From Escherichia phage vB_EcoM-Ro157c2YLVW: a DNA stretch of 64,000 bases. Position 1 is the stretch's first letter, and each line of letters starts with the position of its first letter. Below, in pieces: positions 1-63,412 of the stretch. The translations under genes and the position numbers were made by a program. The DNA lies in sequence record NC_050153.1. One strand, given 5' to 3'. The notes under the pieces are model-generated. The model did not search any database. It worked only from the letters and a program-made list of their open reading frames with translations, and had not been told where the DNA came from.

Positions 1-125
1 TAAAGTTGTTTGGTGATCATGAAGTAGTTGGCAATAACGCCTGGTATATCCCTGGTGCTGATACAGATTGTGTGCTGTTCAATTGCCTCGCTCATCTCTT
101 CACGGGTGACTAATGACGTTCTCAT
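1..125 (-). CDS. Antirepressor-like protein, 5' end only (runs off window start); paralog of the 39863..40900 product
   Basis: Minus-strand translation from ATG at ~123-125 gives MRTSLVTREEMSEAIEQHTICISTRDIPGVIANYFMITKQL, which aligns with the N-terminus of the 345-aa antirepressor at 39863 (MKTPLVTRNEIAEAIALHTTCMPTREIPGAIANYFMITRRF). Start overlaps the stop of the upstream small ORF (ATGA). Confidence 0.6.
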   Translation of the reverse strand, partial: MRTSLVTREEMSEAIEQHTICISTRDIPGVIANYFMITKQL

Positions 126-343
126 AGCCCCTCCTGAGCAGAAGCGTTAACAGGGAGGCACCAGTAACTGAGAGAATTGCGCAAATCGGTAGAAAAGCGG
201 GCAGAGAAAATACAGGGAGCATCCGGAAGCTGAGAACGTGCCTCATCTTCTGTTGGTGCGATAACGAAGTGATAGTGACCTTTCTGGCAGGAGTAAAAGC
301 GCCAGATAAATTCAGGGCGTGCGCAAGGATTGGCATTAACCAT
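122..343 (-). CDS. icd: Icd-like small protein (73 aa), left copy, translationally coupled to ant-like gene
   Basis: 73-aa ORF about 85 percent identical to the 73-aa ORF at 39645..39866; stop overlaps the start of the downstream antirepressor-like gene, as for P1 icd-ant (from memory). Confidence 0.5.
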   Translation of the reverse strand: MVNANPCARPEFIWRFYSCQKGHYHFVIAPTEDEARSQLPDAPCIFSARFSTDLRNSLSYWCLPVNASAQEGL

Positions 344-394
344 AGTTACGGCCTCATGTACAGGTTTAACAACCTGCTACCCGCTGCTAAACGG

Positions 395-560
395 GTGGCA
401 GGACGTGACGGGGTTAGCAGACTGGCGTACATGAAACCAGCAGGCCGAAGCCTCCCCATCACGCCCCACCATAATTCGGGCGTAACGCGGTTTTACGGAC
501 ATAAAAATACCGCAATATCGGAAATCTGCGGTTGTCCGCATGTACATTCAGGCTGCTAAA
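395..560 (-). ncRNA. c4-like antisense RNA and leader region of the left immunity-I-like module (ends not defined)
   Basis: Non-coding leader nearly identical at DNA level to 39430..39644 in inverted orientation; contains one antisense site and two sense target sites that covary between the copies (cores near 357-360, 428-431, 541-544). Confidence 0.4.
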
Positions 561-643
561 CCCGGTCGCAGAATTTGCTACGACGGTGGAACTATAAGCC
601 TGAACGACGATGAGATCAATAGAGCCGTGTTCGATGGTAGGTT

Positions 644-677
644 ATTTGCTCTAATAAATCAAATTTATTAGAGCAAT
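644..677. promoter_or_regulatory. Palindromic pair of C1-repressor-operator-like sites upstream of the left immunity-I module
   Basis: atttgctctaataaatc followed by aaatttattagagcaat, the latter being the exact reverse complement of the P1 C1 operator consensus ATTGCTCTAATAAATTT (consensus recalled from memory). Confidence 0.6.
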
Positions 678-25852: not shown

Positions 25853-26429
25853 ATTGCGGGGCGACTGGCCACTCAACATCCGCTGCTACTGCTGTATCAA
25901 CACGATTCAACAATACCCGATATGTCTTCCATGCAGTCAGTAACGATGCCTCTTCCTCCGTCGCAATATCCAAATCTACGGCATCCTGAAGTGGCGCAAT
26001 ATGCTCACTGGCCATCTGCATCAGGCTGTTTTTTGTTTCTTCCGCCTTCCGGATCCGGAACAGTTTTTCTGCTTCTGCATCTTTCACCCAGGCTGTGCCG
26101 TTCCACTTCTGAAACTCCCCTTCCGGGGATAACCAGGTGACATTTTCCGGTAATGGGCCAAGTTCAGAAATAAATAACGCGTCGCCGGAAGCCACGTCAT
26201 AGACGGTTTTTCCCCGATGGTCTTCAACGAGATTCCACGATGCCTCATCACTGTTGAAAACGGCCACGAAGCCAGCCGGAATATCTGGCGGGGCAATATC
26301 GGTACTGTTTGCAGGCAGACCTGTATGAGGTGGAATGTATGCATCACCTTCACCAATAAACTCATTGGTTCCGGTCAGTAGATTATAAATTTTTATGGTC
26401 CGTGATTGTTCACTCATTCTGAATGTCAT
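25851..26429 (-). CDS. Tail fibre assembly chaperone (Tfa-like, 192 aa)
   Basis: Located immediately downstream of the tail fibre gene, size and acidic composition typical of Tfa/U proteins; start overlaps fibre stop. Confidence 0.6.
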
Positions 26430-39214: not shown

Positions 39215-39322
39215 CATTATAACCTCACCTGCCTTATAACTCATTTAGGGTACATATTTTCGCCTTTAAAAAAAAGAGGTTATTAGATCCAGTTGTGTAT
39301 TTACTAATCAGATAATGCTCTA

Positions 39323-39339
39323 ATAGATTTGTATTTTTA
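39323..39339. promoter_or_regulatory. C1-operator-like site upstream of the right immunity-I module
   Basis: aatgctctaatagattt, two mismatches to consensus. Confidence 0.45.
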
Positions 39340-39429
39340 AGTCGCGAATGCTATCTTTTCGCATCATATTGACCTTTTAATCGTTCAGGCTTATAGTTCC
39401 GCCGTCGTAGCAAATTCTGCGACCGGGTT

Positions 39430-39644
39430 TAGCAGCCTGAATGATTGTGCGGACAGCCGCAGATATCCGATATTGCGGTATTTTTGTGTCCGTAAAACCG
39501 CGTTACGCCCAAATTATGGTGGGGCGTGATGGGGAGGCTTCGGCCTGCTGGTTTCACAATCGCCAGTCTGCTAACCCCGTCACGTCCTGCCACCTGTTTA
39601 GCAGCGGGTAGCAGGTTGTTAAACCTGATTGTGAGGCCGTAACT
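39430..39644 (+). ncRNA. c4-like antisense RNA and leader of the right immunity-I module (ends not defined)
   Basis: Antisense element tcacaatc (about 39555-39561) complementary to gattgtg at about 39443-39449 and at about 39627-39633, the latter lying 12 nt upstream of the icd ATG over the putative Shine-Dalgarno; UUCG-tetraloop hairpin aggcttcggcct nearby. Confidence 0.45.
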
Positions 39645-39866
39645 ATGGTTAATGCCAATCCTTGCGCACGCCCAGAATTCATCTGGCGTTTCTATTCCTG
39701 TAAAAAACACCACTATCACTTCGTTATCGCAGCAACTGAAGACGAAGCACGCTCTCAATTGCCTGATGGCCCCTGCATTTTTACTGCCCGTTTTTCAACT
39801 GACTCGCGCAATTCACTTAGTTACTGGAGCCTCCCCTTCTCTGCCAACGTTCAGGGGGGTTTATGA
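39645..39866 (+). CDS. icd: Icd-like small protein (73 aa), translationally coupled to ant
   Basis: 73 aa; stop overlaps ant start (ATGA); paralog at 122..343. Confidence 0.55.
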   Translation: MVNANPCARPEFIWRFYSCKKHHYHFVIAATEDEARSQLPDGPCIFTARFSTDSRNSLSYWSLPFSANVQGGL

Positions 39867-40900
39867 AAACACCTCTCGTCACCCGTAATGAAATAGCCGA
39901 AGCGATCGCTTTGCATACAACCTGTATGCCGACACGGGAGATCCCCGGCGCAATTGCCAACTATTTCATGATAACCAGACGTTTTTATACCCGAACAGAT
40001 AAGGCTGTGATCAACAGGCTACTGATAGCCGAGATCAGGGATTATTTGATTGAACAAGGACGTCTACGTTACGCAACAGTGGCAGCAGAAATGAGAAAGG
40101 AGGCGCGCAGAATGACCGGTAATAATTTGAATGTTGAAAAACCAGCACCTGTTGCTTCAGCTACGCCATCACCAGCAGTGAATGTTATCTCCAACACCGG
40201 AGACACAATCGACAGCCTGACACTGTTAAAGATGGTCAATGAAGCGCGTAAGTTATGTGGGGAACCAGAGGTTCGGAACAACAAATTCATCGAAAAAATA
40301 CTCGATGAGCTTGATGGTGAGCACTACACAAAAAGTGTAGTGGAAAAAATGAACAAAACATCAATGCTTGTCATAACCATGACTTTCAAACAAGCCCTGC
40401 GAGTCGCCGCGCGCGAGTCAAAAGCGGTCCGCCGTTCGCTGATCGACAAACTGGAAGAATTGCAGCAGGCAAACTCCCCTGCCCCATCGATCCCCCAAAC
40501 ATTACCAGAAGCTCTACGCCTGGCTGCCGAGTTGGCAGAACAGAAAATGCAGCTGGAACAACAGCTGGTGGCCGCAGCCCCTAAAGTCGATTTTGCCGAC
40601 CGGGTATCAGTGGCTAATGGAATCCTGATCGGGAACTTTGCAAAGGTCGTTGGACTTAAGCAAAACGCCCTTTTCTCATGGTTGCGCCAGAACGGCATTC
40701 TCATGGCTTTTGGTGCGCGCAAAAACGTACCGCGCCAACAGTACATCAACGCCGGGTATTTCACGGTGAAAGAAGTGGTGCTGGATGATGAAAATGGCTA
40801 CCAGATACGGCTGACGCCCCAATTAACGGGTAAAGGCCAGCAGTGGTTAACTCGCAAGCTACTTGATGCTGGTTTGTTAAAACCAGTAGCAATAGGTTAA
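39863..40900 (+). CDS. ant: Antirepressor (Ant-like, 345 aa)
   Basis: C-terminal about 130 aa paralogous to the C-terminus of the KilA-N protein at 41064 (…PEALRLAAELAEQK…GKGQQWL…LLDAG…), typical antirepressor C-terminal domain. Confidence 0.75.
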   Translation: MKTPLVTRNEIAEAIALHTTCMPTREIPGAIANYFMITRRFYTRTDKAVINRLLIAEIRDYLIEQGRLRYATVAAEMRKEARRMTGNNLNVEKPAPVASATPSPAVNVISNTGDTIDSLTLLKMVNEARKLCGEPEVRNNKFIEKILDELDGEHYTKSVVEKMNKTSMLVITMTFKQALRVAARESKAVRRSLIDKLEELQQANSPAPSIPQTLPEALRLAAELAEQKMQLEQQLVAAAPKVDFADRVSVANGILIGNFAKVVGLKQNALFSWLRQNGILMAFGARKNVPRQQYINAGYFTVKEVVLDDENGYQIRLTPQLTGKGQQWLTRKLLDAGLLKPVAIG

Positions 40901-40977: not shown

Positions 40978-40994
40978 TTTGCTCTAATAAATTT
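40978..40994. promoter_or_regulatory. C1-operator-like site upstream of kilA
   Basis: tttgctctaataaattt, one mismatch to consensus. Confidence 0.6.
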
Positions 40995-43035: not shown

Positions 43036-43124
43036 TACAATCGTTGCGGGTGCTTGAGGCTATCTGCTTCAGGCATTACCCGAAAAGCAGATAGAAGAAA
43101 GCCCCAGATAACATTACGCGTCCT

Positions 43125-43195
43125 GCAAGACGCTTAACATTAATCTGAGGCCACATCTATGCTTAGCATACGTAGATTAGCCTCTTACCGACCAA
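43125..43195 (-). ncRNA. Predicted Sok-like antisense RNA (position inferred, not demonstrated)
   Basis: By analogy with hok/sok, the antisense RNA covers the mok initiation region; the 5' tac element (gcttgaggct at about 43048) and 3' fold-back region (about 43385-43430) of the hok mRNA are recognisable. Confidence 0.3.
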
Positions 43196-43365
43196 AAGGT
43201 CAAGGAGAAGCAGGCTATGAAGCAGCAAAAAGCGATGTTAATCGCTCTGATCGTCATCTGTTTAACCGTCATTGTGACGGCACTGGTAACGAGGAAAGAC
43301 CTCTGCGAGGTACGAATCCGAACCGGCCAGACGGAGGTCACTGTCTTCACAGCCTACGAATCTGA
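43159..43365 (+). CDS. mok: Mok-like overlapping reading frame of the hok locus
   Basis: ORF overlapping the hok-like gene in another frame, as in hok/mok/sok loci. Confidence 0.45.
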   Translation: MLSIRRLASYRPKGQGEAGYEAAKSDVNRSDRHLFNRHCDGTGNEERPLRGTNPNRPDGGHCLHSLRI

Positions 43366-43369
43366 AAGG
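43217..43369 (+). CDS. hok: Hok/Gef-family type I toxin (50 aa)
   Basis: Translation MKQQKAMLIALIVICLTVIVTALVTRKDLCEVRIRTGQTEVTVFTAYESER, close to E. coli HokD/RelF as recalled; below the 60-aa cutoff of the ORF track. Confidence 0.8.
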
Positions 43370-43446
43370 TAAGAGACCTGGCGGGGAGAGATCCCCGCCA
43401 CTCTTCGTGTGTCAGGTATCCTCAATGCACCCTTTCCTCTCCAAAT

Positions 43447-55930: not shown

Positions 55931-55947
55931 ATTGCTCTAATAAATAT
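55931..55947. promoter_or_regulatory. C1-operator-like site in a divergent promoter region
   Basis: attgctctaataaatat, one mismatch to consensus. Confidence 0.55.
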
Positions 55948-60200: not shown

Positions 60201-60485
60201 ATCTTTTGCGATCCGCCGTATGAACCGCTTCCAAATACAGAGGGATTCACGAACTATTCCGGTCATGACTTTAAGTTTGAAGAGCAAAAACGCCTGGTGT
60301 CTCTGTTGACGGATGCTCATCGTCGAGGTGCAAAGGTTCTCATTACTAACAGTGGCGCGCCAAACATCAGAGAGCTTTATCATGACAGTGGCTTCAGAGT
60401 GGAACCTCTTTTTGCCAGACGTTCTGTGTCTTGTAAGGGGGACACTCGAGGTGTAGCTCATGACGTTTTGGGTATATTGCTCTAA
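57198..60485 (+). CDS. dmt: Bifunctional DNA methyltransferase (N-terminal C5-cytosine domain, C-terminal N6-adenine domain) interrupted by an intein; 1095 aa precursor
   Basis: C5 motifs: GGTPC…QAFS (PCQ split by the insert), ENV (VIVWENVPG); N6A motifs FVGGGAV and DPPY (FCDPPYEP). Removing the 341-aa insert leaves 754 aa. Confidence 0.85.
57429..58451 (+). other. Intein with LAGLIDADG homing-endonuclease domain (341 aa) inside dmt
   Basis: Starts with Cys (CFTAGHMV…), block B TTNDHPF, two LAGLIDADG-type motifs ([21 protein letters not shown]), ends …ILNGAVVHN followed by extein Cys, which is the catalytic Cys of PCQ. Confidence 0.8.
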
Positions 60486-60492
60486 TAAATTT
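60476..60492. promoter_or_regulatory. C1-operator-like site, perfect consensus, overlapping the dmt stop codon
   Basis: attgctctaataaattt followed by a partial inverted copy (aaatttattag). Confidence 0.6.
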
Positions 60493-61157
60493 ATTAGTGT
60501 AATATCACCTCAATGAATCGTGATTTATAGAGCGATTTAGCTGTTAGCCGCGACAGGCGCGGCGGTAAGCATGGCTGGGCCTAGTCCTCCCAGACAAACC
60601 ACCGAGTTGCCAGGTTGACCATGCGCCTAAGTGGCAACGCCGAAGTGCGTTACGAGCGTCCAGTTTGCCCATCTTCGGGTGGGCGTTTTTTTCAGGGTTT
60701 TCGTCATGGTTAGCGACTTTGCGGCGGTTTAGAAACTGACCATTAAAGTAAATGCAAACGATGATCTGATGATGGTAGCGGCCTAAGAAGCCAGATGCCA
60801 TGGGGTATGAGTCGTCCCCCGTCAAAAAATCGACCGCAGAGTGTCCCCGTCTGTGTATTAGGGAACGGGGAGGCACAACAGGTAAGGGCGCTGGTGTGAT
60901 TAACCAGATGAACGAGAAGGGGCCATCTGTTGGTCAGCGTCCTTTCCTGTTGCGTTTTCTTTTCAGCGTAACAGCGGTGCTTAACAGCACTTTGGGTACA
61001 GTTCCACGAATTTACGGGTATATCCCGTCATGCTGAAGGCGCTAATCACGCTGGAAGCCAGGGTTATGCATCCCCTGTTACCGAATTGCAGCCAGGGCGC
61101 GGTGCGCCGAAAAGCATACGGAGGTGGAAGCCCTCGCCGGAGACGTACCCGGCAAGT

Positions 61158-61232
61158 GATGGTGTAGCTCAGCGGTAGAGCAGTTGGCTGTTAACCAACT
61201 GGTCGGTAGTTCGAATCCACCCACCATCGCCA
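61158..61232 (+). tRNA. tRNA-Asn (anticodon GTT)
   Basis: Cloverleaf with 7-bp acceptor GATGGTG/CACCATC, anticodon stem GTTGG/CCAAC, loop CTGTTAA, T-loop TTCGAAT, encoded CCA. Confidence 0.85.
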
Positions 61233-61237
61233 CTTTA

Positions 61238-61324
61238 GGGGAGTTAGTCCGTAGGGGTAGCGGGGTAGACTGTAAATCTACTGTCATTGCGACTCGGGTG
61301 GTTCGACTCCATCACTCCCCACCA
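61238..61324 (+). tRNA. tRNA-like gene, class II, reading as tRNA-Tyr (anticodon GTA), atypical D-arm
   Basis: Acceptor GGGGAGT/ACTCCCC, anticodon stem GTAGA/TCTAC with loop CTGTAAA, long variable arm with GTC/GAC stem, T-arm GGTGG-TTCGACT-CCATC, encoded CCA; the D-stem cannot be drawn canonically. Confidence 0.5.
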
Positions 61325-61328
61325 CATT

Positions 61329-61404
61329 GCCGATTTAGCTCAGTTGGTAGAGCAGTCGCTTTGTAAGCGAATGGTCAGCGGTTCGATCCCGTTAATCGGC
61401 ACCA
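61329..61404 (+). tRNA. tRNA-Thr (anticodon TGT)
   Basis: Acceptor GCCGATT/AATCGGC, D-arm GCTC-AGTTGGTA-GAGC, anticodon loop TTTGTAA, T-loop TTCGATC, encoded CCA. Confidence 0.85.
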
Positions 61405-62135
61405 ACATAACAGGTAAGAGCATTCTCCCTTATGGGGCCTGGCTTAAATGCATCGAGTGCTCTTACCGTTGTGATGAAGTGCAGATCTTAGAAGCAACCA
61501 GAAGATAAGCATCTGGCTTCACAACATAAACCGCAGGAACGACCAATAAACGGTAGTCCGTATGGAGAACACCCCGTTGAGGAAGAGGCCTGGCCGGAAC
61601 CGTAACCGGCGACTGGTAATGTGTGTAAATGGAGCGAAATATGTGGGCGTTTAACGGGATACGGGTTGTAACAGCGATTATTAACGGCGAACTTAAGTAT
61701 TCACGTTTCGAGACAAATGAACGTGATGGGAAATGTATTGGTGTGCGGTTAGTAAGAGAATACGCATAACAACTACAACGTTGAGAACACTGGCGTAACG
61801 GGGTCATATCCCAATCTACGAATAAATGTTGCGTTGCCGCGTGACAACCAGTGTTCTCAACATTGTGGTGAATGCACAGGCTGATGTGCCGCAACTACAG
61901 TAGTGCGCGCTTTGCGGGGCTTGCTACAACCCTGTGTCGGAGTTCAGCACCGACCATCACAGTTTGATTCTCTGGCATGAGCATAACGCTGAAATAAGTC
62001 CAGTCTGGTGCGGTCTGATCACCCGCCGTTAGCTCCACGAAACGGAGCACGTAACAGGTAAGAGCATTCTCCTGTAACAATCTACAGGTCCACCAAGAAT
62101 GCTCTTTCCGTTGCGGTGAATGCGGCTAAGCGCAC
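61405..62135 (+). repeat. Three copies of a conserved hairpin-plus-tail element in a largely non-coding stretch
   Basis: Copies at about 61405-61495, 61775-61885 and 62050-62135: long stems (ggtaagagcattct / agaatgctctt; gttgagaacactgg / ccagtgttctcaac), each followed by GTTGYGRTGAAKGC. Confidence 0.4.
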
Positions 62136-62264
62136 GCGGGGAAATGGTTATATCTGTCCATTATTTCTCCTTGTTTCCACGTCCACGGTGGATAACCAGC
62201 CAAAGGACACCGGGAGGAACCCGGCACCGCAGCTTTTTTATTCGTTAAATAATGGAGTGAGAGG

Positions 62265-62501
62265 ATGCAGAACAATCCGAACAAATGTCGAACGCTATGG
62301 GTGCGGTTATATATTTATGCCGTCCTCTGTTTGATTGTGTCACTGGTTCTGTATGTTTGGCTTTTGCCAAATATGATCTCATCTAACAGCACAATACTTG
62401 TATTGTTGGGAGTCCTTCTCGCGCTCATTTACCCGGCTTTCGCAGTAGTCTTTTTTCGTGAAAAAACCAGGAAATTAATTAATGAAAAAAACGTTGATTA
62501 G
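62265..62501 (+). CDS. Small integral membrane protein (78 aa)
   Basis: Two hydrophobic helices; overlaps start of the next gene. Confidence 0.4.
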   Translation: MQNNPNKCRTLWVRLYIYAVLCLIVSLVLYVWLLPNMISSNSTILVLLGVLLALIYPAFAVVFFREKTRKLINEKNVD

Positions 62502-63309
62502 TGCAGCGATTATTTTGGGTTCTTTATGTCTGACCGGATGCGATCGGGTAGAGCCAGGTAACGTAGGGATCAAAGTAAATAAGCTGGGGGATGATAAAGG
62601 TATCGGTGAAGTAGTTGGCGTTGGTCGCTACTGGACAGGCTTGAATACTGAAGTTTATATCTTCCCGACCTTTAAGCAAATGAAGACATACGATGAGCCG
62701 TTCAGCTTCCAGATGAGCGACGGAACAACCATTGGTTACCACATCGGCGTAGCCTACAAGGTTGATCCAGCAAAAGTCACAACGGTATTTCAGACCTATC
62801 GCAAAGGTGTAGATGATATTACTGATACCGATCTACGCCAGAAGGTTGCAGATGCTCTGAACCGATTAGCCAGCAAAATGACCACCGACAAATTTATCGA
62901 CGGTGGCAAATCTGAATTGCTTGATGCAGCCCTTAAAGACATTCAGGAAGAAATGACGCCAATCGGCATTCAGGTGATGAGCCTCTCTTATGTAGGTAAG
63001 CCAGAATACCCGCCAACAGTTATTGACAGTATTAACGCCAAAGTCACGGCAAACCAAAAAACCCTGCAACGCGAGCAAGAGGTCAAACAACGTGAAGCAG
63101 AGGCCAACATGCTGCGCGCGGAAGCTGCCGGACAGGCTGATGCTATTCGCACAAAAGCCCAGGCCGAAGCTGATGCCATTCGTTTACGTGGTGAAGCTCT
63201 GCGCCAGAACCCCGGTGTTATGGACTTGGAAGCGATCAACAAATGGAACGGTACATTACCGCAGTATATGACCAGTAATACCGCTGTTCCGTTTGTTCCG
63301 GTGAAATAA
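62482..63309 (+). CDS. SPFH/band-7-domain lipoprotein (275 aa)
   Basis: Lipoprotein signal MKKTLISAAIILGSLCLTGC; C-terminal Ala/Glu/Arg-rich coiled coil typical of stomatin/prohibitin-like proteins. Confidence 0.6.
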   Translation: MKKTLISAAIILGSLCLTGCDRVEPGNVGIKVNKLGDDKGIGEVVGVGRYWTGLNTEVYIFPTFKQMKTYDEPFSFQMSDGTTIGYHIGVAYKVDPAKVTTVFQTYRKGVDDITDTDLRQKVADALNRLASKMTTDKFIDGGKSELLDAALKDIQEEMTPIGIQVMSLSYVGKPEYPPTVIDSINAKVTANQKTLQREQEVKQREAEANMLRAEAAGQADAIRTKAQAEADAIRLRGEALRQNPGVMDLEAINKWNGTLPQYMTSNTAVPFVPVK

Positions 63310-63336
63310 AAGCGTAAGCAAAATTGGCAGTAATCC

Positions 63337-63412
63337 GGCCCTTTAGCTCAGTGGTTAGAGCTGGCGACTCATAATCGCACGGTCACCGGTTCAAGTCCGG
63401 TAGGGGCCACCA
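63337..63412 (+). tRNA. tRNA with CAT anticodon, most like tRNA-Ile2 (lysidine type)
   Basis: GGCCCTT…AGGGGCC acceptor, anticodon loop CTCATAA, T-loop TTCAAGT; near-identical to E. coli ileX as recalled. Confidence 0.75.

What the first reader, a model, noticed from the sequence alone, without database searches (positions are those of the whole stretch)
39430..39644. Two immunity-I-like antisense modules with concerted compensatory 4-nt swaps at all three pairing sites
The leaders upstream of the two icd-ant-like gene pairs are near-identical except at three short sites. Right copy: gATTGtg, caCAATc (antisense), gATTGtg at the icd ribosome-binding site. Left copy at equivalent positions (about 541-544, 428-431, 357-360): TACA / TGTA / TACA. 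Antisense and target change together, the hallmark of an RNA-RNA pairing system. This implies a c4-like antisense RNA and two non-cross-reacting immunity specificities in one genome.
Basis: seen in the sequence. Interest (0 to 1): 0.8.

Follow-up and report, generated by a model that had tools for sequence, protein, structure and literature searches.

The report
Two c4 antisense immunity modules
A P1/P7-like phage-plasmid carries two copies of the known c4 antisense-RNA switch that keeps an antirepressor gene silent; the copies differ almost only at three mutually matching 4-base sites, so each RNA most likely controls only its own copy, as is known for the separate phages P1 and P7.

Summary
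Over 253 nt from the -10 box to the icd start codon, the two leaders differ at 18 positions. Twelve of these are three 4-nt blocks (b1, b' in the c4 loop, b2 at the icd ribosome-binding site) that stay mutually complementary within each copy.

Rfam calls a C4 RNA and an a1/b1 target element in both copies. The right copy is 100% identical to phage P7 immI. The left copy is an old paralogue (icd dS about 1.45, dN/dS 0.07) lying between mat and cre, where P1 has ref. It has its own C1 operator and promoter. In relatives its Ant carries an ORF6N domain that canonical Ant1 lacks.

Across 56 distinct leaders from public contigs, every a and b position pairs (100%). There are two a-types and at least seven b-types. 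In 14 genomes or contigs with 2-4 modules, no two co-resident modules share a type.

Estimated pairing loss between the two window modules (about 9-10 kcal/mol) resembles that between P1 and P7, the pair reported as heteroimmune. However, the two modules share a', and non-cross-reaction is untested.

Verdict: a real new specificity member of a known system. The widespread multi-module, combinatorial pattern appears undescribed in the searchable literature.

The parts
39314..39330 (+). C1 repressor operator of the right (canonical, P7-type) immI operon; homologue of P1 Oc4/Op51
   Evidence: 2 mismatches to the consensus ATTGCTCTAATAAATTT. The window holds 9 matches against 0.31 expected. The position corresponds to P1 Oc4 and P7 Op(c4) in the GenBank annotations.
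39369..39397 (+). Promoter of the right module, TTGACC-17-TATAGT; homologue of P1 P1c4 (former P51b)
   Evidence: Promoter scan. Collinear with the annotated P1 promoter.
39429..39449 (+). Right a1 (TTAGCAG, 39429-39435) and b1 (GATTGTG, 39443-39449), the upstream sites complementary to c4
   Evidence: Rfam RF03163 c4-a1b1 hit at 39391-39443, 55.5 bits. Coordinates. Covariation with a'/b'.
39518..39594 (+). Right c4 antisense RNA, 77 nt by homology to the annotated P1/P7 c4; b' TCACAATC 39554-39561, a' CTGCTAA 39568-39574
   Evidence: Rfam C4 hit, 69.6 bits. 100% identical to P7. MFE -44.9 kcal/mol, z = -5.7.
39598..39636 (+). Right target on the icd mRNA: a2 TTAGCAG 39598-39604, b2 GATTGTGA 39627-39634, overlapping the GAGG Shine-Dalgarno at 39633-39636
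   Evidence: Coordinates. P1 annotation of a2/b2 as sites for repression of icd/ant translation. Covariation.
39645..39866 (+). Right icd (73 aa), cell-division inhibitor
   Evidence: ORF list. 94.5% identical to P1 Icd.
39863..40900 (+). Right ant1/ant2 (345 aa) antirepressor; its start overlaps the icd stop by 4 nt
   Evidence: ORF list. 92.8% identical to P1 Ant1. Pfam ANT/KilAC domain PF03374 at aa 232-334.
645..677 (-). C1 operators of the left module: a perfect consensus site at 677-661 (- strand) and an overlapping inverted partner at 645-661 (+ strand, 3 mismatches)
   Evidence: The operator lies 42 nt upstream of the -35 box, against 39 nt in P1.
591..619 (-). Promoter of the left module, TTGATC-17-TATAGT, collinear with the right copy's P51b-type promoter
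   Evidence: Promoter scan. Alignment.
539..559 (-). Left a1 (TTAGCAG, 559-553) and b1 (GTACATG, 545-539)
   Evidence: Rfam RF03163 hit at 545-597 (-), 55.7 bits. Coordinates.
394..470 (-). Left c4 antisense RNA (77 nt); b' TCATGTAC 434-427, a' CTGCTAA 420-414
   Evidence: Rfam C4 hit at 391-476 (-), 71.7 bits. Same fold as the right copy, -44.9 kcal/mol, z = -4.9.
352..390 (-). Left target: a2 TTAGCAG 390-384, b2 GTACATGA 361-354, overlapping the GAGG Shine-Dalgarno at 355-352
122..343 (-). Left icd paralogue (73 aa, intact)
   Evidence: ORF list. 83.6% aa identity to the right Icd. dN/dS 0.07 with dS 1.45.
1..125 (-). First 41 codons of the left ant paralogue, cut by the window edge; its start overlaps the icd stop by 4 nt
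   Evidence: 95% identical to the first 41 aa of the 370-aa Ant at the same site in plasmid NZ_CP069714. That protein has ORF6N (PF10543) plus ANT/KilAC (PF03374) domains.

Best explanation
The window comes from a P1/P7-like phage-plasmid that carries two immI-type operons.

Each operon has, in order: a C1-repressor operator, a sigma-70 promoter, a leader with sites a1/b1, a 77-nt c4 RNA, sites a2/b2, then icd and ant with overlapping stop and start codons.

As established for P1 and P7, c4 is cut out of the leader of its own operon transcript. Through its hairpin loop (b') and its 3' junction (a') it pairs with b2 and a2 on the same kind of transcript. The b'/b2 helix covers the icd Shine-Dalgarno. 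icd is therefore not translated, and the coupled downstream ant (an antirepressor that inactivates the C1 repressor) stays off.

The right operon is P7's immI itself. The left operon is an old paralogue inserted between mat and cre, where P1 has ref. Its b1, b' and b2 sites carry a concerted 4-nt swap (GTACAT type instead of GATTGT). Each c4 therefore forms the RBS-occluding helix only with its own operon.

Consequences: the prophage expresses two c4 specificities and holds two independently locked antirepressors. As a resident it can silence incoming relatives whose ant modules are of either type. As an invader it can be silenced only by a resident that supplies both c4 types.

Shown here: sequence anatomy, Rfam membership, compensatory changes, family-wide covariation, purifying selection on icd, and conserved operators and promoters. 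Taken from P1/P7 knowledge: processing of c4, trans action, translational repression with polarity on ant. Inferred: non-cross-reaction of the two modules, and the shield-and-sword benefit.
For: Rfam C4 and c4-a1b1 hits at both copies lie above the gathering scores. The right copy is 100% identical to P7 immI.

P1's GenBank record annotates a1, b1, c4, a2, b2, Oc4 and P1c4/P2c4 at collinear positions.

The three 4-nt blocks are the only clustered differences in a 253-nt leader: 12 of 18 differences.

Both RNAs share one fold, with b' and a' unpaired.

Across 56 distinct leaders, all 784 cells (a1/b1 with a'/b') and all 840 cells (a'/b' with a2/b2) form standard pairs. Eight pairs change on both sides (188 cells). 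Slid controls give 27-48% pairing and 0-1 covarying pairs.

Two a-types and at least seven b-types occur in 12 or more combinations, each self-consistent at all three sites.

Cognate pairing is about -24 kcal/mol. The left/right cross pairs give -13.9 and -15.5, and P1/P7 cross pairs give -12.0 and -13.8.

The left module has a perfect C1 operator, a P51b-like promoter, an intact icd with dN/dS 0.07, and a 4-nt icd-stop/ant-start overlap like the canonical operon.

The same module sits at the same mat|cre site in many plasmids.

In 14 genomes or contigs with 2-4 modules, none of the 30 co-resident pairs shares an (a,b) type; 3.5 were expected and the permutation P is 0.021.
Against: No RNA or reporter data exist for either copy in this replicon.

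The two modules share a'/a1/a2 (TTAGCAG). A 7-bp a'/a2 contact (about -9 kcal/mol) remains possible between non-cognate partners. P1 and P7, the calibrating pair, differ in both a and b.

The left ant is cut off after 41 codons by the window edge, so its integrity here is unknown. In the close relative pO111_2, the ant at this site is truncated.

The b-type is strongly linked to the insertion site: GTACAT appears in 0 of 59 canonical modules and 16 of 21 mat-site modules. 'Co-resident modules always differ' may therefore reflect ancestry rather than selection, and the permutation P is not corrected for this or for relatedness.

The role of a1/b1 is only 'putative' even in P1.

Whether the ORF6N-type Ant binds C1 is unknown.
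Confidence: 0.8

Rival explanations
1. One immunity with redundancy. Because both c4 RNAs share a' and the rest of the molecule, each still binds the other operon's a2 (and a1) well enough to repress it. On this view the two modules cross-react at least partly, and the b difference only tunes strength.
For: a', a1 and a2 are identical in the two modules. The a'/a2 duplex alone is about -9 kcal/mol, and non-cognate totals remain -14 to -15.5 kcal/mol. In a lysogen, cross-repression would be harmless.
Against: a2 lies about 30 nt upstream of the Shine-Dalgarno; only the b'/b2 helix covers it. Across the family, b sites covary as strictly as a sites, so b pairing is under selection. Some co-resident modules share b and differ only in a, and others do the reverse, as expected if both contacts are needed. 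The P1/P7 cross pairs have comparable residual energy, and that pair is reported as heteroimmune.
Confidence: 0.2
2. The left module is a decaying relic of a duplication or an acquired fragment. It no longer functions, and its differences are drift.
For: The ant at this site is truncated in pO111_2. The left ant cannot be checked in this window. P1 and P7 themselves do without this module.
Against: Drift would not produce three mutually complementary 4-nt blocks in an otherwise 97.5% identical leader. icd dN/dS is 0.07 at dS 1.45. The module has a perfect C1 operator and a conserved promoter and an unchanged c4 fold. An intact 370-aa Ant is present at this site in NZ_CP069714. The module recurs at the same site in many plasmids and IMG/VR contigs.
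Confidence: 0.05
3. The covariation at b1 (and a1) reflects folding of the precursor in cis, or a decoy/anti-antisense role of the 5' leader (as IsrK activates anrP in Gifsy-1), rather than a repression target. This changes the role of one of the three sites, not the overall system.
For: P1's annotation calls a1/b1 only 'putative' targets. a1/b1 lie upstream of c4 on the same transcript. In Gifsy-1, the leader RNA IsrK acts in trans to activate translation of the downstream orf45-anrP (PMC4825925). An isrK-family leader directly precedes the C4 RNA of the third module of pO111_2.
Against: No isrK hit occurs in this window. Nothing here distinguishes a cis from a trans role. b1 pairing is weaker than b2 (-10 against -15 kcal/mol) but is equally conserved.
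Confidence: 0.35

Closest known systems
immI operon of phage P7 (c4-icd-ant1/2; AF503408)
   Same: The right module is 100% identical over the 281-nt leader. It has the same downstream icd, ant1/2, kilA and repL.
   Different: Nothing detectable for the right module. P7 itself shows only one matching place in the searches and has no module at the mat|cre site.
immI operon of phage P1 (c4 RNA; a1/b1/a2/b2 sites; Citron & Schuster 1990, cited in PMC12197685)
   Same: Same architecture, RNA fold and collinear operator, promoters and sites. Specificity is set by short complementary segments. P1 differs from P7 by compensatory changes in the same sites.
   Different: P1 has a = TTGACAG and b = GTTAGT. 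The left module has a = TTAGCAG and b = GTACAT, a combination not found at any canonical immI site sampled. The left module sits where P1 has ref, in inverse orientation. In relatives it encodes an ORF6N-containing Ant.
Extra icd-ant homologues noted in P1-like plasmids (pSvP1 RD-1; ant between pacB and c1 in pTZ20_1P/RCS47; PMC6906374)
   Same: The same kind of additional icd-ant copies in P1-like plasmids, at the same variable regions.
   Different: That paper mentions them as gene-content differences. It does not mention a c4 RNA upstream or its pairing specificity.
Gifsy-1 isrK-orf45-anrP locus (Salmonella; PMC4825925)
   Same: A prophage leader RNA, a short upstream ORF and a translationally coupled antirepressor, with control by RNA-RNA pairing at the upstream ORF's RBS. 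An isrK-type leader plus a C4 RNA precedes the third icd-ant module of pO111_2.
   Different: IsrK activates translation in trans, whereas c4 represses. No isrK match occurs in this window.
sar antisense RNA of the phage P22 immI region (from my own knowledge, not checked here)
   Same: A small antisense RNA that blocks translation of an antirepressor (ant) in a secondary immunity region.
   Different: sar is a true cis-antisense transcript from the opposite strand. c4 is encoded on the same strand as its target and pairs through two short segments.

Membership tests
C4 antisense RNA (Rfam RF01695) / P1-P7 immI operon | An RNA of about 77 nt that matches the C4 covariance model above the gathering score (45 bits) | tested here: met
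   71.7 bits (left, 391-476 -) and 69.6 bits (right, 39512-39597 +).
C4 antisense RNA (Rfam RF01695) / P1-P7 immI operon | A long closing stem with two hairpins, leaving b' in the loop of hairpin 2 and a' in the 3' junction | tested here: met
   Identical MFE and centroid structures for both copies, -44.9 kcal/mol, z = -5.7 and -4.9.
C4 antisense RNA (Rfam RF01695) / P1-P7 immI operon | a'/b' complementary to a2/b2 downstream, with b2 overlapping the icd Shine-Dalgarno | tested here: met
   Exact 7-bp and 8-bp complementarity in both copies. 100% pairing with 8 covarying pairs across 56 leaders.
C4 antisense RNA (Rfam RF01695) / P1-P7 immI operon | A second pair of complementary sites, a1/b1, upstream of c4 (Rfam RF03163) | tested here: met
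   55.7 and 55.5 bits against a gathering score of 46.7. 100% pairing across 56 leaders.
C4 antisense RNA (Rfam RF01695) / P1-P7 immI operon | c4 and its target are co-transcribed from promoters next to a C1 operator | tested here: met
   The sequence-level criterion is met; function was not tested. Operator matches at 39314-39330 and 661-677. Promoter-like sites at 39369-39397 and 619-591, collinear with annotated P1 features.
C4 antisense RNA (Rfam RF01695) / P1-P7 immI operon | Downstream icd (73 aa) translationally coupled to an ant gene encoding a KilAC-domain antirepressor | tested here: inconclusive
   Fully met for the right module. For the left module, icd is intact and overlaps the ant start by 4 nt, but ant is cut after 41 codons by the window edge. 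The homologous gene in NZ_CP069714 is intact, with ORF6N + KilAC domains.
C4 antisense RNA (Rfam RF01695) / P1-P7 immI operon | c4 is processed from the precursor (RNase P at the 5' end, from my own knowledge) and acts in trans to repress icd/ant | not testable with these tools
   The stem and flanking sequences are identical in both copies and in P7, but no expression data are available.
C4 antisense RNA (Rfam RF01695) / P1-P7 immI operon | Different specificities do not cross-repress (heteroimmunity, as for P1 against P7) | not testable with these tools
   Only an energetic proxy is available. Cognate pairs give about -24 kcal/mol, left/right cross pairs -13.9/-15.5, and P1/P7 cross pairs -12.0/-13.8. 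a' is shared between the two window modules.
isrK Hfq-binding RNA (Rfam RF01394) | A match to the isrK covariance model above the gathering score (50 bits) | tested here: not met
   No isrK hit in the window at the gathering threshold. A hit (60.8 bits) exists only in the third module of the relative pO111_2.

The most novel reading that the evidence does not exclude
P1-like phage-plasmids as a group use a combinatorial RNA 'lock code': at least two a-types, at least seven b-types, and a further diverged isrK/C4 lineage. They stack up to four mutually distinct c4-icd-ant modules per genome, at the canonical immI site, between mat and cre, between pacB and c1, and elsewhere.

On this reading the extra modules are weapons in an immunity/anti-immunity arms race. 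Every additional c4 widens what a resident can silence. Every additional differently keyed ant (some with a different ORF6N effector domain) gives an invader one more way to break a resident's C1 repression.

The window's pair would be one instance of this pattern, and the pattern appears not to have been described.
Probability: 0.45. Interest if true: 0.6.

Novelty: new member of a known kind. Interest (0 to 1): 0.42.

Why it matters
The mechanism itself is classical: c4 antisense control of the P1/P7 antirepressor, with specificity set by a few complementary bases.

What the window adds is that one replicon holds two such switches with different keys. This is also not a one-off:
- Roughly one in five or six P1-type plasmids in PLSDB holds at least two P1-type c4 leaders.
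- Co-resident modules were never of the same type in the 14 multi-module genomes or contigs sampled.
- The keys form a small combinatorial set.

If the modules are truly orthogonal, three things follow:
- Superinfection immunity among these phage-plasmids, which are medically relevant because they carry resistance genes, would be governed by a multi-lock RNA code readable from sequence.
- That code could predict which P1-like elements can coexist with or displace one another.
- It would supply a ready-made set of natural orthogonal antisense/target pairs for synthetic biology.

Tried and rejected
Unconstrained RNAduplex of whole c4 against the targets was uninformative. It unzips c4's own -45 kcal/mol stem and gave about -40 kcal/mol for every pair. 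I replaced it with duplexes of the accessible loop and junction segments.

The first IMG/VR pattern fixed a' and therefore missed P1-type a' modules. A second scan on the conserved hairpin fixed this.

A regex typing pass had an off-by-one error in a', so its a1/a2 flags were ignored in favour of the alignment-based table.

The exact source replicon was not found. The best plasmid match was 98.7% over 24 kb, and the best match to the left module was 97.2%.

The primary papers could not be read: Lobocka 2004 (PMC523184), Citron & Schuster 1992 (PMC312442) and Heinrich 1994 (PMC196329) are not held. Gilcrease & Casjens 2018 on phage D6 did not turn up in my library searches. Prior description of c4 types there cannot be excluded.

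Six literature searches found nothing on typed or multiple c4 modules. The ETEC genome paper's 'antisense RNA' mentions concern hok/sok only.

I considered that the left copy might be an IsrK-type element and rejected this, because the window has no Rfam isrK hit.

I considered a recent duplication and rejected it: icd dS is about 1.45, and the Ant proteins of the two lineages are only 57% identical, with a different central domain.

Full report
**1. What is in the sequence**

The window holds one long inverted repeat, 153-621 against 39367-39835 (469 nt, 88%).

I aligned the right copy (+ strand) with the reverse complement of the left copy and located every element exactly. From the -10 box to the icd start codon, both leaders are 253 nt long and align without gaps. 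They differ at 18 positions.

Six differences are isolated. The other twelve are three 4-nt blocks:
- ATTG against TACA at b1 (right 39444-39447; left 544-541 on the - strand).
- CAAT against TGTA inside the c4 loop (right 39557-39560; left 431-428).
- ATTG against TACA at b2 (right 39628-39631; left 360-357).

The b2 block lies immediately 5' of, and its helix overlaps, the GAGG Shine-Dalgarno 9 nt before the icd ATG. Within each copy, the c4 block is the exact complement of both target blocks.

**2. Identity of the elements**

An Rfam scan of the whole window finds:
- the C4 antisense RNA family at 391-476 (-) with 71.7 bits and at 39512-39597 (+) with 69.6 bits (gathering score 45);
- the 'a1, b1 targets of C4' family at 545-597 (-) and 39391-39443 (+), with 55.7 and 55.5 bits (gathering score 46.7).

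BLAST against phage records shows the right leader is 100% identical to phage P7 immI and 93% identical to P1. The window as a whole is collinear with P1/P7-like genomes.

The GenBank record of P1 annotates the C1 operator Oc4, promoters P2c4 and P1c4, sites a1 and b1, the 77-nt c4 RNA, and sites a2 and b2. It marks a2/b2 for 'repression of icd ant translation'. icd and ant1/ant2 follow. Every one of these has a collinear counterpart in both window copies.

Both 77-nt RNAs fold identically (-44.9 kcal/mol; z = -5.7 and -4.9). The b' segment sits in a 9-nt hairpin loop and a' sits in the 3' junction.

**3. The two modules are old paralogues, not a recent duplication**

The right operon continues into icd (73 aa), ant (345 aa), kilA and repL, as in P1 and P7.

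The left operon runs leftwards from a perfect C1 operator (677-661, with an overlapping inverted partner at 645-661). It passes a TTGATC-17-TATAGT promoter, the leader, an intact icd (343-122) and an ant whose first 41 codons reach the window edge.

The two icd genes are 79% identical in DNA. dS is about 1.45 and dN is about 0.10, so dN/dS is 0.07. The divergence is old, and both copies are under purifying selection.

In plasmid NZ_CP069714, which is 97% identical over this module, the ant at this site encodes 370 aa and is only 57% identical to canonical Ant1. Compared with Ant1:
- the N-terminal part (about 85 aa) is shared, 63% identical over the first 41 aa;
- the C-terminal ANT/KilAC domain is shared;
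- the central segment is replaced by an ORF6N domain.

In P1 this position, between c8 and mat, is occupied by ref.

Against this background the leader stands out. Outside the three blocks it is 97.5% identical. Either it is extremely constrained, or it has been homogenised while the specificity blocks stayed different.

**4. Is the compensatory pattern more than chance?**

I collected c4 leaders from IMG/VR with two pattern scans and added P1, P7, D6 and two plasmids. I then extracted a1, b1, b', a', a2 and b2 from about 125 leaders.

Almost every module is self-consistent at all three a positions and all three b positions. The types are:
- two a-types: TTAGCAG as in P7, and TTGACAG as in P1;
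- at least seven b-types: GATTGT (P7), GTTAGT (P1), ACTTAC (D6), GTACAT (the left copy), ACGAAT, ACTTGT and GTTCAA.

These occur in 12 or more combinations.

On a non-redundant alignment of 56 distinct leaders, I counted the intermolecular pairs formally:
- a1/b1 with a'/b': 784 of 784 cells form standard pairs.
- a'/b' with a2/b2: 840 of 840 cells form standard pairs.
- In each case, 8 pairs change on both sides (188 cells).
- Sliding the partner by 1-3 columns gives 27-48% pairing and at most one covarying pair.

This is strong natural evidence for the pairing. It extends the P1/P7 two-type picture to a small combinatorial set.

**5. Would the two window modules cross-react?**

Unconstrained duplex prediction is useless here, because it unzips c4 itself. 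I therefore used only the accessible loop and junction segments:

| c4 and target | Summed a + b pairing (kcal/mol) |
|---|---|
| Cognate pairs | about -24 (b -15, a -9) |
| Right c4 on left target | -13.9 |
| Left c4 on right target | -15.5 |
| P7 c4 on P1 target | -13.8 |
| P1 c4 on P7 target | -12.0 |

P1 and P7 are reported to be heteroimmune through c4 (review PMC12197685; PMC6906374). The loss of pairing between the two window modules is thus in the range that suffices in nature.

Only the b'/b2 helix covers the Shine-Dalgarno, and that is the helix that is destroyed.

The caveat is that the window modules share the a contact, whereas P1 and P7 differ in both. Non-cross-reaction is therefore inferred, not shown.

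**6. Multi-module genomes are common**

A leader-only query finds 575 plasmid records and 684 places in PLSDB. In a spread sample, 13 of 60 records had two or more places. This is a lower bound, because a more diverged c4 lineage is not detected by megablast.

pO111_2 (NC_013370) is 98.7% identical to the window over 24 kb. It has three modules:
- one between mat and cre (TTGACAG/GTACAT; its ant is truncated);
- the canonical one (P7 type);
- one between pacB and c1. Its leader matches Rfam isrK (60.8 bits) and its RNA matches C4 (75.9 bits). It has its own self-consistent sites (TTGGCCT / GTCTAAGG, with G-U wobbles).

One IMG/VR contig of 97 kb carries four P1-type modules.

In 14 genomes or contigs with two to four modules, none of the 30 co-resident pairs shares an (a,b) type. 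Random assortment predicts 3.5 identical pairs, and the permutation P is 0.021.

This test is not corrected for relatedness. It is also not corrected for the strong link between type and site: GTACAT occurs in 0 of 59 canonical modules but in 16 of 21 mat-site modules. The difference may therefore be inherited with the paralogous lineage rather than selected in each genome.

**7. Mechanism and confidence**

I regard it as near certain that both copies are c4-type antisense modules of different pairing specificity. I regard it as likely (about 0.65-0.7) that they are functionally orthogonal.

The proposed benefit is inference from P1/P7 biology. A resident with two c4 types silences more kinds of incoming ant. 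An invader with two differently keyed ants is harder to silence.

Three rivals are set out separately: partial cross-reaction through the shared a contact; a decaying relic; and a cis-folding or decoy role for a1/b1. The last is suggested by the Gifsy-1 IsrK precedent, where the leader RNA activates the antirepressor (PMC4825925).

**8. Novelty**

The mechanism and the right module are already known.

The left module is a new specificity member of the family. It lies at a non-canonical site and, in relatives, has a different Ant architecture.

Extra icd-ant copies in P1-like plasmids have been mentioned in passing (PMC6906374). None of six full-text searches found an analysis of their c4 RNAs, their types or their co-residence.

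The primary P1 papers were not readable here, and the D6 genome paper did not turn up in my searches, so prior description cannot be excluded.

I therefore file the finding as a new member of a known kind, with moderate interest. The family-wide combinatorial, multi-lock reading is flagged as the most novel case that the evidence allows.

Noticed in passing
window 43048-43372: A sok antitoxin RNA (Rfam RF01794, 114.8 bits, 43048-43222) with a hok-like 51-aa ORF (43217-43372) lies just downstream of repL. pO111_2 annotates hokD at the same relative position.
   Followed up: partly
window 25888-26086 (-): A full-length match to the Rfam family IS009 (RF02111, 192.7 bits against a gathering score of 117).
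   Followed up: no
window 61158-63409 (+): Four tRNA genes: 61158-61229, 61238-61321 (weak, 41.9 bits), 61329-61401 and 63337-63409. P1-type phages are known to carry tRNA genes.
   Followed up: no
window 10754, 14604, 40978-40994, 55931-55947, 60476-60503: The C1 operator consensus ATTGCTCTAATAAATTT matches 9 times with up to 3 mismatches, against 0.31 expected. The matches include the Op53/OrepL homologue upstream of kilA (40978-40994) and an overlapping inverted pair at 60476-60503.
   Followed up: partly
L124 43402-43591 (pO111_2, NC_013370.1 93402-93591): The third icd-ant module of a close relative, between pacB and c1, has an isrK-family leader (60.8 bits) directly followed by a diverged C4 RNA (75.9 bits). 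It has its own self-consistent a/b sites, and an IS1203 is inserted between icd and ant. Whether the window's replicon has this module is unknown, because it would lie left of the window.
   Followed up: partly
L051 (IMGVR_UViG_2565956613_000015) and L050 (same genome): One module has b' = b1 = ACGAAT but b2 = GTTAGT, a mismatched lock. The same genome holds a c4 of the GTTAGT type that could repress it in trans. Both modules lie at contig ends, so an assembly chimera is not excluded.
   Followed up: no
alignment A2 (56 leaders); window 39429-39634 and 559-354: The a and b types occur in many combinations although their sites are interleaved (a1, b1, b', a', a2, b2). A single crossover cannot exchange one type without the other, so how the combinations arise is unexplained.
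   Followed up: no
window 122-596 against 39392-39866: The leader is 97.5% identical between the paralogues outside the three blocks, yet the adjoining icd genes are saturated at synonymous sites (dS about 1.45). This points to extreme constraint on the leader or to homogenisation that spared the specificity blocks.
   Followed up: partly
IMG/VR loci such as L005, L019, L076, L089, L120: Many P1-type c4 leaders lie in contexts with none of the P1 marker genes tested (kilA, mat, cre, c1, pmgC). They therefore sit at further insertion sites or in other phage families.
   Followed up: no
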